A stretch of 64,000 bases of DNA from a virus. The position numbers and the translations under genes were made by a program. The stretch lies in the IMG/VR virus record IMGVR_UViG_3300037804_000367, positions 64,787 to 128,786 of that record, one strand, 5' to 3'. A model generated the notes under the pieces. It worked only from the letters and a program-made list of their open reading frames with translations, had not been told where the DNA came from and did not search any database. Of this stretch, positions 18,398-57,372 are shown piece by piece (positions within the stretch are counted from its first letter, which is position 1; each line of letters starts with the position of its first letter).

Positions 18398-18733
18398 TTA
18401 AGCTACCTCTTCAACTTCTACAGTTTCCGAAATGACTTGATGAACTACTGCTTCAAGTTTTTTATAACTGTTACTAAATCCGTTCTTAAACTCGTTATCA
18501 TTGTGAGTATGACTTGGTTTGTTACGAAACTCATTGTAAATGATATGAAGCAACGTAAGGTTTGTTGCAAAAGAATTTGGTCTTAGTGTATTTTCTAATC
18601 TCCAATCTCCGTCTCTCTGAGCTTGTTTAAACTCAGGTTTGCGAATCTTCTGTGCTTCAGTTAGTTTTATGATTTCACTTTTTAGGGTAGAAACTACTGC
18701 TTTGTATTGTGCTCTTGTGATATTCGTATTCAT
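18398..18733 (-). CDS. hypothetical protein between leader peptide and Pth2-like gene
   Basis: 111 aa; GGAG SD; in frame with and abutting the pth2-like ATG. Confidence 0.8.
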   Translation of the reverse strand: MNTNITRAQYKAVVSTLKSEIIKLTEAQKIRKPEFKQAQRDGDWRLENTLRPNSFATNLTLLHIIYNEFRNKPSHTHNDNEFKNGFSNSYKKLEAVVHQVISETVEVEEVA

Positions 18734-18739
18734 TTTCTT

Positions 18740-18807
18740 TCTCCGAAATATTATTTAATTAAGTGTTTGTTTTTATAAAATGGGTAATCCATTTTCACTT
18801 ACGGAGA
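18740..18807 (-). promoter_or_regulatory. RBS-sequestering mRNA stem (putative translational attenuator)
   Basis: Nested pairs TCTCCG/CGGAGA (covers the SD of 18398..18733), TAAGTG/CACTTA, AAAATGG/CCATTTT. Confidence 0.65.
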
Positions 18808-18828
18808 GTTGTTACGTATCTACATCAT
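18799..18828 (-). CDS. leader peptide with TAG at codon 3 (MM*IRNNSP)
   Basis: AAAGGA SD, ATG ATG TAG ATA CGT AAC AAC TCT CCG TAA. Confidence 0.65.
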
Positions 18829-18912
18829 GATACAATTCCTTTTATTGTTGTTTTTACTTATATTAAAATCTAATACAAAGTGACACTACCTTGTACTTTT
18901 TTAATATTAAAA

Positions 18913-18985
18913 TGCCCAGTGTGGGGATCGAACCCACGTCTCAAGGATTTAGAATCCAGCGCAATAACCGCTATACTAACTGAGC
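18913..18985 (-). tRNA. amber suppressor tRNA (anticodon CUA)
   Basis: 7-bp acceptor GCTCAGT/ACTGGGC, D-loop GG, loop TT-CTA-AA closed by GGA/TCC (two upper mismatches), T arm GTGGG-TTCGATC-CCCAC; no encoded CCA. Confidence 0.85.
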
Positions 18986-18996
18986 TTAAAATTAAA

Positions 18997-19305
18997 TTAA
19001 CCTACGTGAGTAAATAATAAAGATTTTGCTTCCATTCCAAAAGCATTTTTAAATCTTTCCTTGTATTCTTCAACTTTTGAAAAATCTAAATCCTTTGACA
19101 TATTAAATCCAATATATGTATCATCATCTTCAGGACCAGATAAACAATTTTCAAACTGAACGTCAAATGCAAAATTATCTTTAAAATATTCATTATCGTC
19201 CCAAGCAGGAAGATCAGCGATTTCTCTTACAGTCAACCCAATATCCTGTACGGATCGACCAATCATTAGTACAGCTTCATACTCGTAACTCATTTCAAAC
19301 TCCAA
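18997..19305 (-). CDS. hypothetical acidic protein
   Basis: First ORF after the promoter at 19322-19362. Confidence 0.7.
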   Translation of the reverse strand: MEFEMSYEYEAVLMIGRSVQDIGLTVREIADLPAWDDNEYFKDNFAFDVQFENCLSGPEDDDTYIGFNMSKDLDFSKVEEYKERFKNAFGMEAKSLLFTHVG

Positions 19306-19321: not shown

Positions 19322-19362
19322 CTTACTAATATTAATATACATCCTTAACTAGACAAGTCAAC
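19322..19362 (-). promoter_or_regulatory. sigma70-type early promoter heading the suppressor-tRNA operon
   Basis: TTGACT...GATGTATATTAATATTAGTAAG. Confidence 0.8.
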
Positions 19363-38948: not shown

Positions 38949-38970
38949 TTGAATCCTTTTTATTATTAAA

Positions 38971-39331
38971 TGGAGGTGGGGAGAATCGAACTCCCGTCTT
39001 GATAAATACTACACAAAAACTTCTACATGTTTAGTCTATGTTTTATACTTTAAGAATCTCAAATGTCAAACATTGACAAACCTAAATGAGATAATGGTTA
39101 ATTAAATTTCAGTCAAAGATATTATAGCCATCAATCTTATCCCTACCTGTGATTGATAAACGCCTCAAAATGTTATCACGATATACATTTCTTTTGACGG
39201 ATTGCTTCTGTGAGCAATCAACTTTGCTGTTAGGCTGCAGTTATATTTTGAATAGATATTTTAACAGGCCAACTATTCATCCTGTACATGCGGTCTTAGT
39301 TCATATCTCCAATCGATGCCTGAGCACCCCC
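38971..39331 (-). ncRNA. ssrA: tmRNA
   Basis: 5' GGGGGTG pairs with 3' CACCTCC-A with G3.U70; T arm GGGAG-TTCGATT-CTCCC; pk1 ACAGG/CCTGT and GAATAG/CTATTC; resume codon GCA 11 nt after pk1. Confidence 0.93.
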
Positions 39332-56522: not shown

Positions 56523-56864
56523 CTAGAATAAAAAGTTTTTCATTGTGACAAATGTCATCACTTCTGACACAGTTGCATCATCAGTATCATAGTCTTGACC
56601 CATTAATTGATTGAGAACATTTCCTTTTGCAATCTTTTCAGCTATCTTACTAGTGGTTACAATTTCAACAATATCAAACTTTGCTGGATTCGCGCGCTTG
56701 CTGAGAGGTGCTTTGCTGTATTGGATCTGTTTATCGAGTTGAACCAAAGTCATTAATAATTCATCTGAAAACAAATCAACATGGTCCCAAACAAATCCTT
56801 TAAAACGAGTCGGACGACAGTAACCTTTTACCAAATATTCGTTGAGTTTTTCTCTTGTAATCAT
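56523..56864 (-). CDS. hypothetical protein
   Basis: First gene after promoter, GGAG SD. Confidence 0.7.
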   Translation of the reverse strand: MITREKLNEYLVKGYCRPTRFKGFVWDHVDLFSDELLMTLVQLDKQIQYSKAPLSKRANPAKFDIVEIVTTSKIAEKIAKGNVLNQLMGQDYDTDDATVSEVMTFVTMKNFLF

Positions 56865-56887
56865 AACCGAATCTCCTAATTTCTTTT

Positions 56888-56928
56888 CTTACCTACTTTA
56901 ATATACACCCTTAAATAGATAAGTCAAG
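56888..56928 (-). promoter_or_regulatory. sigma70-type early promoter
   Basis: TTGACT...AAGGGTGTATATTAAAGTAGGTAAG. Confidence 0.8.
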
Positions 56929-56940
56929 GACAAAATGAAA

Positions 56941-57372
56941 CTATTTCTTAGGAGATTGTATGTGATTAATCAATATGTGAAAAGGTAATCTTATCGCTCT
57001 GTATTGTTTATCTTTTAACCTAGCAGTCATTTCTTCGCCTGCTCCTGGATTCATAGTATGAATCACTATTTGTTCTATGGTAGATAAATTAGATTCAATC
57101 CAACGTACGACTTCCATTCCAGTATCTTTACGATCAGAACTTACCATGACTTCTCCACCCAAATCATGATCTAGAAACAAGCTACCGACATCATTTGTTG
57201 ATAACAAGTCAATTATTTCTTGAGCAGTTTCCACACACACAGCATGTGGAATCTTTTCTAAAAAGGCTTTTGTTCGTTTTGGGTCATCATCTAAGAATAA
57301 AACATCAATCATTTTAATTGATTCCTTGTTTTTTGAGTTGTATTTGTTGACTATAAGAAACATAATTAGCAT
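56941..57372 (-). CDS. stand-alone receiver-like domain (cyclic-phosphate-processing type); probable start MIDVLF near 57312
   Basis: LFLDDDPKR...FLDHDLG...TGMEVVRWI...IHTMNP. Confidence 0.75.
   Translation of the reverse strand: MLIMFLIVNKYNSKNKESIKMIDVLFLDDDPKRTKAFLEKIPHAVCVETAQEIIDLLSTNDVGSLFLDHDLGGEVMVSSDRKDTGMEVVRWIESNLSTIEQIVIHTMNPGAGEEMTARLKDKQYRAIRLPFHILINHIQSPKK

What the first reader, a model, noticed from the sequence alone, without database searches (positions are those of the whole stretch)
18740..18828. Amber leader peptide coupled to an RBS-occluding hairpin
Seen: the last leader codons (TCT CCG TAA GTG) pair as TCTCCG/CGGAGA and TAAGTG/CACTTA with the SD region of ORF111, with an inner AAAATGG/CCATTTT hairpin. 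Inference: a ribosome stopping at codon-3 UAG sits about 13-15 nt short of the stem and leaves it closed. Readthrough to CCG-TAA would melt it and free the RBS, making this a translational attenuator that reads out stop-codon suppression.
Basis: partly seen in the sequence, partly recalled or inferred. Interest (0 to 1): 0.78.

Follow-up and report, generated by a model that had tools for sequence, protein, structure and literature searches.

The report
Amber-readthrough leader gating a phage gene
A large marine phage places a tiny upstream reading frame with an early UAG stop just behind its own UAG-reading tRNA gene, and the end of that frame pairs with the ribosome-binding site of the next gene, so that gene is probably translated only when the phage tRNA overrides the stop; this would be a natural sensor of stop-codon suppression, and it is untested at the bench.

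Summary
On the minus strand, 85 nt after a tRNA(CUA) gene, a canonical phage RBS (AAGGAATT) precedes ATG ATG TAG ATA CGT AAC AAC TCT CCG TAA. UCUCCG/UAAGUG pair with CACUUA/CGGAGA, the Shine-Dalgarno of ORF111. The hairpin has dG -15.4 kcal/mol and z -4.1.

The only retrievable homologous locus (Tara scaffold L011, ORF111 53% identical) has the same leader. In it, 74 of 78 nt in three blocks are identical although synonymous sites are saturated. The apical part and codons 4-5 have diverged with no change in mini-ORF length.

Constrained folding leaves the SD paired with a ribosome at UAG (P unpaired 0.02). A ribosome at UAA frees it (0.88 in the window, 0.57 in L011).

This phage group also starts real genes with "ATG-N-TAG" next to a tRNA(CUA): 10 of 10 Pth2-like relatives. 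An earlier follow-up in this scan reported that on this same DNA, and I re-tested it.

It is not shown: there are only two sequences, no covariation and no experiment. Rivals are a plain RBS-masking hairpin, a bar-like minigene, and an antisense promoter. I rate it a new variant of a known kind.

The parts
19334..19361 (-). Early promoter of the operon (TTGACT-16-TATATT inside the phage's stereotyped early-promoter consensus)
   Evidence: one of about 18 near-identical TTGACTTATCTAGTTAAGGGTGTATATTA promoters in the contig
18997..19305 (-). ORF102, first gene of the operon, function unknown
   Evidence: no Pfam or PHROG hit
18913..18985 (-). tRNA with anticodon CUA (amber suppressor)
   Evidence: ARAGORN; Rfam tRNA 52.6 bits; amino-acid identity not assignable
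18837..18841 (-). SD1 (AAGGA, within AAGGAATT), 8 nt before the first ATG of the mini-ORF
   Evidence: the same AAGGAATT form as RBSs of other genes of this phage; identical in L011
18799..18828 (-). Mini-ORF ATG ATG TAG ATA CGT AAC AAC TCT CCG TAA (UAG is codon 3 and is followed by A; it ends Ser-Pro-UAA)
   Evidence: L011 has ATG ATG TAG ATT AAT AAC AAC TCT CCG TAA, with the same length and frame
18796..18807 (-). 5' arm of the hairpin, UCUCCG + UAAGUG; it overlaps the last two sense codons and the UAA
   Evidence: part of a block that is 19/19 identical in L011
18777..18795 (-). Apical stem-loop AAAAUGG-AUUAC-CCAUUUU (variable part)
   Evidence: the sequence is not conserved in L011, where the stem is instead extended by UAA/UUA
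18760..18765 (-). 3' arm a, CACUUA, pairs with UAAGUG
   Evidence: identical in L011
18746..18759 (-). Conserved AU-rich internal loop AUUAAAUAAUAUUU, a possible ribosome standby site (inference); it is not an exact late promoter
   Evidence: conserved apart from a 2-nt indel; the late-promoter consensus of this phage is TATAAATA, whereas this is ATTAAATA
18740..18745 (-). 3' arm b, CGGAGA = Shine-Dalgarno of ORF111, pairs with UCUCCG
18398..18733 (-). ORF111, the regulated gene; helical protein of unknown function
   Evidence: only two homologues among 5.8 billion proteins; helical model with pLDDT 68 and no fold match
18086..18397 (-). Second amber gate: ATG ACA TAG, in frame with the Pth2-like gene and abutting the ORF111 stop (TAA ATG)
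   Evidence: relatives
18053..18086 (-). Intrinsic terminator closing the operon
   Evidence: 13-bp stem followed by a T run

Best explanation
The 18740-18841 leader is a cis-acting translational switch for ORF111 whose input is amber suppression by the phage's own tRNA(CUA). The tRNA is co-transcribed just upstream from the same early promoter.

In the free mRNA, the ORF111 Shine-Dalgarno (GGAGA) is locked in a -15 kcal/mol hairpin by the sequence UCUCCG-UAAGUG. Ribosomes load at SD1 on AUG AUG.

If RF1 terminates at UAG (codon 3), the ribosome's 3' edge ends just short of the helix. The helix stays closed and ORF111 stays off.

If tRNA(CUA) reads the UAG, the ribosome runs six more codons to Ser-Pro-UAA. 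It then sits on the 5' arm and releases the SD. A 30S subunit, possibly waiting on the conserved AU-rich loop, can then start ORF111.

ORF111's stop abuts a second amber start (ATG ACA TAG) of the Pth2-like gene, so the operon is gated twice.

Shown: the sequence elements, the predicted fold, nucleotide conservation and the geometry. Inferred: that the mini-ORF is translated, that the UAG is read through, and that this controls ORF111 output.
For: 1. The elements and the MFE/centroid fold are exactly as described. The hairpin z-score is -4.1 in the window and -3.6 in L011.

2. Homologous locus L011 (ORF111 homologue 53% identical) carries the same leader. Three blocks are 22/24, 19/19 and 33/35 identical (74/78 in total). 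Codon identity at synonymous positions is only 53% in ORF111 and 45% in the Pth2-like gene, and the two tRNA(CUA) genes are 55% identical. Binomial P is about 1e-10 to 1e-15.

3. The variable positions fall where the model has no constraint. These are 2 of 5 nt in the SD1-ATG spacer, codons 4-5 (3 nt changed, no indel, no new stop) and the apical loop.

4. In L011 two ORFs lie between the tRNA and the leader. The leader therefore travels with ORF111 and is not part of the tRNA trailer.

5. Constrained folding gives these P(SD unpaired) values: 0.02 for free RNA, 0.02 with a ribosome at UAG even with a +17 edge, and 0.88 (window) or 0.57 (L011) with a ribosome at UAA.

6. Early in-frame TAG is a real device in this phage group. 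All 10 IMG/VR Pth2-like relatives have one, and 9 of 10 have a tRNA(CUA) within 2.5 kb. Most have no alternative start after the TAG. GAP32, L011 ORF174 and L001:986 are further examples.

7. All 13 distinct early TAGs, the leader's included, are followed by a purine, against 55% of the TAG terminators in this genome. A purine is the context known to favour amber suppression (my knowledge: Bossi 1983; Miller and Albertini 1983).

8. SD+ATG-NNN-TAG occurs only 3 times on the coding strand in 129 kb, and two of those are in this operon.

9. Termination is slow and drop-off high on 2-codon ORFs (PMC2490762). C-terminal Pro slows termination (Hayes et al. 2002, as cited in PMC7246954). Both would sharpen such a switch; this point is inference.
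Against: - Only two sequences are available and both stems are identical, so there is no compensatory change.
- In their wider context the folds are only modestly better than shuffles (z -2.2 and -1.0).
- The SD helix is 6 bp and closes a 14-16-nt internal loop.
- SD occlusion at this level is not rare in this phage (about 6% of SD-bearing genes).
- The conserved TAACAA and the conserved loop are not required by the model.
- The 5' block also reads as a sigma-70-like promoter on the opposite strand in both genomes (and my reading).
- After termination at UAA the helix could refold before a 30S binds, since UAA is 63-65 nt from the ORF111 AUG.
- The genome is not recoded and 13% of its genes end in TAG, so suppression may be weak.
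Confidence: 0.5

Rival explanations
1. The element is an ordinary RBS-masking hairpin, and the mini-ORF is incidental. The hairpin would keep ORF111 translation low, or tie it to a particular transcript or processing state, as in the phage T4 genes e and soc. It could also act as an mRNA stability or processing element.
For: SD-occluding hairpins recur in this phage: 8 of 137 genes have P(unpaired) below 0.05. At least one is of the T4 type. At gene 56523-56864 the anti-SD lies upstream of an early promoter, so only the proximal transcript has a free SD. The phage uses a T4-like late promoter, TATAAATA, which is 10-fold enriched in intergenic DNA. The conserved loop contains ATTAAATA.
Against: No early consensus and no exact TATAAATA lies between the arms. 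This reading does not explain why AAGGAATT-N5-ATGATGTAG is 22/24 identical at saturated divergence. It also does not explain why the mini-ORF keeps its length and its stop inside the stem.
Confidence: 0.2
2. AUG AUG UAG works as a two-codon minigene like the bar minigenes of phage lambda. Abortive translation would release fMet-Met-tRNA, and the Pth2-like hydrolase encoded in the same operon would recycle it. Suppression is not the point of the element.
For: The mini-ORF has two sense codons before a stop and a good SD. The operon encodes a Pth2-like protein. The shorter the minigene, the more peptidyl-tRNA drop-off and the slower the termination (PMC2490762). Lambda bar minigenes poison Pth-deficient cells (Hernandez-Sanchez et al. 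1998, cited in PMC8012679).
Against: This reading does not explain the conserved open frame to UAA inside the stem. It does not explain the SD pairing. It also does not explain the consistent linkage of early TAG (never TAA or TGA) with a tRNA(CUA).
Confidence: 0.08
3. The conservation of the 5' block reflects a DNA-level signal on the plus strand. This would be a sigma-70-like promoter, TTGTTA-16-TGnTACAAT (GATAAT in L011), firing antisense to the operon. The pairing with the SD would then be fortuitous.
For: One search lists this site (plus strand 18809-18836, 9/12 matches, with TG). The reverse complement of L011 1036-1068 keeps TTGTTA, the 16-nt spacing, the TG, and A2 and T6 of the -10 hexamer (read). 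This would explain the conserved TAACAA.
Against: A promoter does not need an invariant spacer (ATCTACATCAT) or an invariant TCCTT downstream of it. The phage's own promoters are very different and highly stereotyped. There is no plus-strand gene for about 9 kb. The DNA it would read into differs between the two genomes. It does not explain the 3' block.
Confidence: 0.07
4. The arrangement arose by chance in AT-rich intergenic DNA, and the similarity to L011 comes from a recent exchange of this segment.
For: Short ORFs and weak hairpins are common in 33% GC DNA. The first 90 nt of ORF111 are also about 80-87% identical.
Against: Within that coding stretch half of the synonymous codons differ (12 of 24), so the segment is not recently shared. 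The non-coding blocks are more conserved than the coding DNA around them.
Confidence: 0.05

Closest known systems
Leader-peptide translational attenuation (ermC, cat-86 and cmlA type)
   Same: A short leader ORF has its own RBS. The RBS of the downstream gene is held in a hairpin whose 5' arm lies in or next to the leader ORF. A ribosome parked at a defined leader position opens the hairpin.
   Different: In those systems the trigger is drug-dependent stalling by a specific nascent peptide. Here the proposed trigger is whether a UAG at codon 3 is read by a phage suppressor tRNA or terminated. There is no sign of a conserved arrest peptide, since codon 5 differs between the two leaders.
Phage T4 RBS-sequestering hairpins (genes e, soc, 49) with a promoter inside the hairpin
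   Same: The host is a large virulent phage with T4-like TATAAATA late promoters. The SD is buried in a stem on read-through transcripts.
   Different: No promoter consensus lies between the arms here. A conserved translated-looking mini-ORF ends in the 5' arm.
Stop-codon-recoded phages with suppressor tRNAs (TAG or TGA reassignment; bioRxiv 10.1101/2021.08.26.457843)
   Same: A phage-encoded tRNA(CUA) and in-frame TAG are used as a regulatory device.
   Different: This genome uses the standard code. TAG ends 13% of its genes, and in-frame TAGs are confined to codon 3 of two starts in one operon. Here the TAG lies in a non-coding leader and not in a protein.
prfB (RF2) autoregulatory frameshift and tnaC
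   Same: The outcome at a stop codon early in a short frame reports the balance between termination and an alternative decoding event, and sets expression of a downstream gene.
   Different: prfB uses a +1 frameshift at UGA and senses RF2. tnaC senses tryptophan through RF2 inhibition and acts through Rho. Here the event is readthrough by a dedicated tRNA, and the output is RBS unmasking.
Synthetic amber-suppression switches (leader peptide with an inserted UAG, PMC6412442 section 6; suppressor-tRNA feed-forward loop, PMC7969014)
   Same: The logic is the same: a leader must be translated beyond a UAG for downstream expression, and one promoter drives both the suppressor tRNA and the amber-gated genes.
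   Different: Those are engineered, and the leader version acts on transcription through rut/Rho. This one is natural and appears to act on translation initiation.
Lambda bar minigenes
   Same: An SD plus a two-sense-codon ORF in a phage, with a link to peptidyl-tRNA hydrolase.
   Different: bar minigenes end in UAA or UGA, have no suppressor partner and do not mask a downstream RBS.

Membership tests
Leader-peptide translational attenuator (erm/cat type) | Short leader ORF with its own RBS immediately upstream of the regulated gene | tested here: met
   AAGGA, then 8 nt, then ATG ATG ... TAA. It is 65 nt (window) or 63 nt (L011) before the ORF111 ATG.
Leader-peptide translational attenuator (erm/cat type) | The RBS of the regulated gene is sequestered by pairing with a segment in or next to the leader ORF | tested here: met
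   Prediction only. UCUCCG pairs with CGGAGA, and P(SD unpaired) is 0.02 in both homologues.
Leader-peptide translational attenuator (erm/cat type) | Inducer-dependent ribosome arrest by a conserved nascent peptide | tested here: not met
   The peptide is 2 or 9 residues long and codon 5 differs (Arg versus Asn). No arrest motif is evident. The proposed trigger is readthrough, not arrest.
Leader-peptide translational attenuator (erm/cat type) | Structure supported by compensatory changes across homologues | tested here: inconclusive
   Both stem arms are identical in the only two sequences. The apical part differs but pairs in a different way.
T4-type promoter-in-hairpin RBS masking | A promoter between the two arms, so that the proximal transcript lacks the anti-SD | tested here: not met
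   There is no TTGACT...TATATT early consensus and no TATAAATA between 18796 and 18745; only ATTAAATA is present.
Stop-codon-recoded phage (TAG reassigned) | Many genes, typically late ones, interrupted by in-frame TAG, and TAG not used as a terminator | tested here: not met
   29 of 229 crude gene calls end in TAG. Coding density is normal under table 11. Only 3 SD+ATG-NNN-TAG sites exist.
Stop-codon-recoded phage (TAG reassigned) | Phage-encoded tRNA with anticodon CUA | tested here: met
Lambda bar-type minigene | SD plus AUG plus one further sense codon plus stop | tested here: met
   AUG AUG UAG with SD1
Lambda bar-type minigene | Expression sequesters tRNA as peptidyl-tRNA and is toxic when Pth is limiting | not testable with these tools
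   This needs a pth(ts) or rap host assay.
Intrinsic terminator / transcription attenuator | GC-rich stem followed by a U run | tested here: not met
   No U run follows the 3' arm (CGGAGAAAGAAAAUG). The scan finds only the terminator at 18086-18053.
Any Rfam family | Covariance-model match | tested here: not met
   Nothing in 18650-18920 at E<=1. At gathering score the window gives only the tRNAs and a tmRNA.

The most novel reading that the evidence does not exclude
The leader is a natural riboregulator whose input is nonsense suppression. Together with the amber start that follows ORF111, it would form a two-step (multiplicative) gate. That gate would be wired as a feed-forward loop with the co-transcribed tRNA(CUA). 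The phage would then make ORF111 and the Pth2-like (and HD-like) tRNA-handling proteins only when, and in proportion to how strongly, its suppressor tRNA is working. These proteins may in turn set the level of suppression, closing a feedback loop analogous to RF2 autoregulation.
Probability: 0.3. Interest if true: 0.8.

Novelty: new variant of a known kind. Interest (0 to 1): 0.62.

Why it matters
RBS-masking hairpins opened by a leader-translating ribosome are textbook. I found no natural case in which the decision is made by a suppressor tRNA reading a stop codon in the leader. My literature searches returned only engineered equivalents.

If the model is real, it would show that standard-code phages carrying a tRNA(CUA) use it as a private regulatory signal rather than for genome-wide recoding. 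That would help explain why such tRNAs persist in genomes that still end genes in TAG. It would also offer a compact, portable, natural amber-suppression sensor for synthetic biology.

It also flags a class of genes that annotation pipelines truncate or miss, such as the Pth2-like gene of phage GAP32.

Tried and rejected
**Searches for more homologues**
The contigs of P0002 (62% identical ORF111 homologue) and the 257-kb and 324-kb contigs could therefore not be fetched.
- ORF111 and its alignment found nothing in IMG/VR, INPHARED phages or GTDB genomes.
- The stem motif found nothing in IMG/VR.
- The single metagenome scan gave one locus, L011.
- Relatives cannot be drawn for a virus record.
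- No second copy of any leader block exists in the 129-kb contig.

**Analyses not done or uninformative**
- No covariance model was built. MAFFT misaligns the 3' arm, and two sequences with identical stems carry no covariation.
- The ORF111 function searches were uninformative: Pfam and PHROGs, an AlphaFold model that is helical with pLDDT 68, Foldseek against PDB and the ESM Atlas.
- The amino acid carried by tRNA(CUA) could not be assigned.

**Readings rejected**
- The mini-ORF as an N-terminal extension of ORF111: the distance between the two ATGs is 95 nt in the window and 93 nt in L011, so the frame relation is not kept, and two TAA codons intervene.
- A tRNA 3' trailer or processing element: in L011 two ORFs separate the tRNA from the leader.
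- The small 5' hairpin GUAUC/GAUAC around the start codons: it is not conserved in L011, where both arms are changed without compensation.
- A second small ORF in the hairpin (GTG AAA ATG ... TAA in the window): in L011 GTG is followed at once by TAA.
- A transcription terminator or any Rfam family.
- Genome-wide shaping of TAG terminators by the suppressor: I saw no special context and no shorter extensions after TAG.

Full report
**What the DNA is.** The window is the second half of a 128.8-kb virus contig with 33% GC. ARAGORN finds 30 tRNA genes on it and Rfam finds a tmRNA. An identical ORF111 protein is on record on a 257-kb contig, so this is probably a jumbo phage. Nearly all genes are on the minus strand. 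The genome uses the standard code: 29 of 229 crude gene calls end in TAG, and coding density is normal under table 11.

The phage has a very stereotyped early promoter, TTGACTTATCTAGTTAAGGGTGTATATTA, present in about 18 copies. It also has a T4-like late motif, TATAAATA, which is 10-fold enriched in intergenic DNA.

**The operon, in minus-strand order.**
- Early promoter, 19361-19334.
- ORF102.
- tRNA(CUA), 18985-18913.
- An 85-nt gap.
- The leader.
- ORF111, 18733-18398.
- TAA, followed directly by ATG ACA TAG in frame with a Pth2-like gene that runs to 18086.
- A strong terminator, 18086-18053.

**Check of the observation.** The minus strand reads AAGGAATTGTATC ATG ATG TAG ATA CGT AAC AAC TCT CCG TAA GTG AAAATGG ATTAC CCATTTT ATAAAAACAAA CACTTA ATTAAATAATATTT CGGAGA AAGAAA ATG.
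- In the 121-nt context the fold is -19.9 kcal/mol with z -2.2.
- For the hairpin alone it is -15.4 kcal/mol with z -4.1 and 0 of 200 shuffles as stable. Those boundaries were chosen after the fact.

SD1 has the AAGGAATT form seen at other genes of this phage. On the coding strand of the whole contig only three SD+ATG-NNN-TAG sites exist. Two of them are in this operon, and the third lies inside a long ORF. ORF111's SD ranks 6th of 137 for occlusion, and about 6% of SD-bearing genes reach that level. Occlusion on its own is not unusual in this phage.

**Comparative evidence.** ORF111 has only two homologues in 5.8 billion proteins. IMG/VR, INPHARED and GTDB held no homologue. The one metagenome scan returned a 2969-bp Tara scaffold, L011, which encodes the 53%-identical homologue.

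L011 has a tRNA(CUA) and then two small ORFs, one of them Lar-like. After those comes the same leader: AAGGAATTATCTC ATG ATG TAG ATT AAT AAC AAC TCT CCG TAA GTG TAA ... TTA CACTTA ATTAAATAAAATATTT CGGAGA AATAAA ATG.

Three blocks are 22/24, 19/19 and 33/35 identical. The background is saturated: among codons for identical amino acids only 53% (ORF111) and 45% (Pth2-like) are the same, and the two tRNA(CUA) genes are 55% identical. The leader blocks are thus the best-conserved nucleotides of the locus, with binomial P of 1e-10 to 1e-15 for 74/78.

What varies is what the model leaves free:
- two positions in the SD1-ATG spacer;
- codons 4-5 (ATA CGT against ATT AAT, with no indel and no stop);
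- the apical part, which in L011 pairs differently by extending the stem with UAA/UUA.

The L011 hairpin is -13.4 kcal/mol with z -3.6. In its wider context z is only -1.0. Because both arms are identical in the two sequences, no covariation test is possible.

**Geometry.** I folded both leaders with the ribosome footprint forced single-stranded.

| State | P(SD unpaired), window | P(SD unpaired), L011 |
|---|---|---|
| Free RNA | 0.02 | 0.02 |
| Ribosome with UAG in the A site, 3' edge up to +17 | 0.02 | 0.02 |
| Ribosome with UAA in the A site | 0.88 | 0.57 |

The first paired base is 11 nt after the UAG in both genomes. That is just outside a ribosome's 3' boundary.

**Context that raises the prior.**
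- In ten IMG/VR loci encoding relatives of the Pth2-like protein, all ten have an in-frame TAG at codons 3-9. Nine have a tRNA(CUA) within 2.5 kb, and most have no alternative start after the TAG. This re-tests and agrees with an earlier follow-up of this scan on the neighbouring gene (e1-5943050).
- The cultured phage GAP32 has ATG GCA CAA TAG, and its annotated CDS is truncated accordingly.
- L001 has a second amber-start gene.
- In L011 the amber start after ORF111 belongs to a different gene, ORF174. That gene overlaps the start of the Pth2-like gene and is fused to it in phage XacN1.
- All 13 distinct early TAGs, including both leaders, are followed by A or G, against 55% of TAG terminators. 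From my own knowledge (Bossi 1983; Miller and Albertini 1983), a 3' purine favours amber suppression.
- Very short ORFs terminate slowly (PMC2490762), and C-terminal proline slows termination (Hayes et al. 2002, cited in PMC7246954). A UAG at codon 3 and a Ser-Pro-UAA end would each help the proposed switch. That is inference.

**Best explanation and its rivals.** Those features are SD1, ATG ATG TAG, the conserved spacing, the stop inside the 5' arm, the SD pairing, and the linkage to tRNA(CUA) and to a second amber gate. Under this model, readthrough of the leader UAG by the phage tRNA carries a ribosome onto the anti-SD arm and unmasks ORF111. I give it about 0.5.

The rivals are:
- A plain RBS-masking hairpin of the T4 kind (0.2). 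This phage has at least one clear example, at gene 56523-56864, where the anti-SD lies upstream of an early promoter. No promoter consensus lies between the arms here, and this reading ignores the conserved mini-ORF.
- A bar-like two-codon minigene tied to the Pth2-like hydrolase (0.08).
- A conserved sigma-70-like promoter on the opposite strand, TTGTTA-16-TGnTACAAT or GATAAT (0.07). It would explain the otherwise unexplained TAACAA, but not the invariant spacer or the 3' block.
- Chance or recent exchange (0.05). This is contradicted by the saturated synonymous sites inside the flanking coding DNA.

Two features remain unexplained by the main model: the conserved TAACAA and the conserved AU-rich loop. 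The loop may be a standby site, which is inference.

**Comparison with known systems.** It works like leader-peptide translational attenuation (ermC/cat) and like translational coupling through RBS unmasking. It is not a member of those families, because there is no arrest peptide and no inducer. It is not a recoded phage, not a T4 promoter-in-hairpin, not a terminator and not an Rfam family.

Engineered counterparts exist: a leader peptide carrying an inserted UAG (PMC6412442) and a suppressor-tRNA feed-forward loop (PMC7969014). My searches found no natural precedent, though the library is incomplete.

**Verdict.** This is a real, conserved cis element upstream of ORF111. About 0.85 of my probability goes to some function at the nucleotide level. 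Its most likely mechanism is suppression-dependent RBS unmasking. I class it as a new variant of a known kind. It is of moderate to high interest and is directly testable with a small reporter series.

Noticed in passing
window 38968-39331 (-): A full-length tmRNA gene (Rfam RF00023, 105.6 bits) lies in this phage. ARAGORN did not report it. Together with 30 tRNAs, a suppressor tRNA and a Pth2-like gene, it points to a large translation and rescue toolkit.
   Followed up: no
window 56864-56964 (-), gene 56523-56864: This is a T4-style promoter-in-hairpin. The anti-SD AAUCUCCUAAG lies upstream of the early promoter at 56927 and pairs with the AGGAG SD of the gene (P unpaired 0.001). Only transcripts from the proximal promoter should be translatable.
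   Followed up: partly
whole contig; window 3619, 7357, 10033, 13554, 19361, 21080, 24880, 27515, 56927 (-): About 18 copies of a near-identical early promoter, (T)TTGnnGTTGACTTATCTAGTTAAGGGTGTATATTAATAtAGGTAAGAAA, are present. TATAAATA is 10-fold enriched in intergenic DNA (10 of its 14 minus-strand copies), which implies T4-like late transcription.
   Followed up: partly
L011 1457-2011 and 2011-2316; L012 (XacN1) 1961-2800: In L011 the amber start after the ORF111 homologue (ATG TTA TAG) belongs to a 174-aa protein with an H..HD-like motif. Its stop overlaps the start of the Pth2-like gene, which carries no TAG there. In Xanthomonas phage XacN1 the two are fused in one ORF (46% identity over 166 aa), so they are probably functional partners.
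   Followed up: partly
L001 986: A second amber-start gene sits in a related viral contig: AGGAG-N7-ATG AAG TAG A..., followed by 190 open codons. Amber starts are therefore not limited to the Pth2-like gene.
   Followed up: no
L013 (Cronobacter phage GAP32 JN882285) about 2474-2812: The Pth2-like gene of a cultured phage starts ATG GCA CAA TAG A... The deposited annotation (GAP32_397) starts downstream and truncates the conserved N-terminus. Several related records have no annotation at all at this place.
   Followed up: partly
window 18820, 18389; L001-L011, L013: Every early in-frame TAG seen (13 distinct) is followed by A or G. TAG terminators in this genome are followed by A 11, T 11, G 5 and C 2 times.
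   Followed up: partly
window 18809-18836 (+): A sigma-70-like promoter, TTGTTA-16-(TG)n-TACAAT, lies on the strand opposite the leader. Its -35, spacing, TG and key -10 positions are kept in L011. It may explain the conserved TAACAA or may be a by-product.
   Followed up: partly
window 18748-18798 (-): Directly after the leader's TAA there is an in-frame GTG AAA ATG ... TAA small ORF that runs through the hairpin and ends in the conserved loop. It is absent in L011 (GTG TAA), so it is probably incidental.
   Followed up: yes
window 18913-18985 vs L011 450-526: The two tRNA(CUA) genes are only 55% identical. L011's encodes CCA and the window's does not. They may not be orthologous even though the operon logic is shared.
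   Followed up: partly
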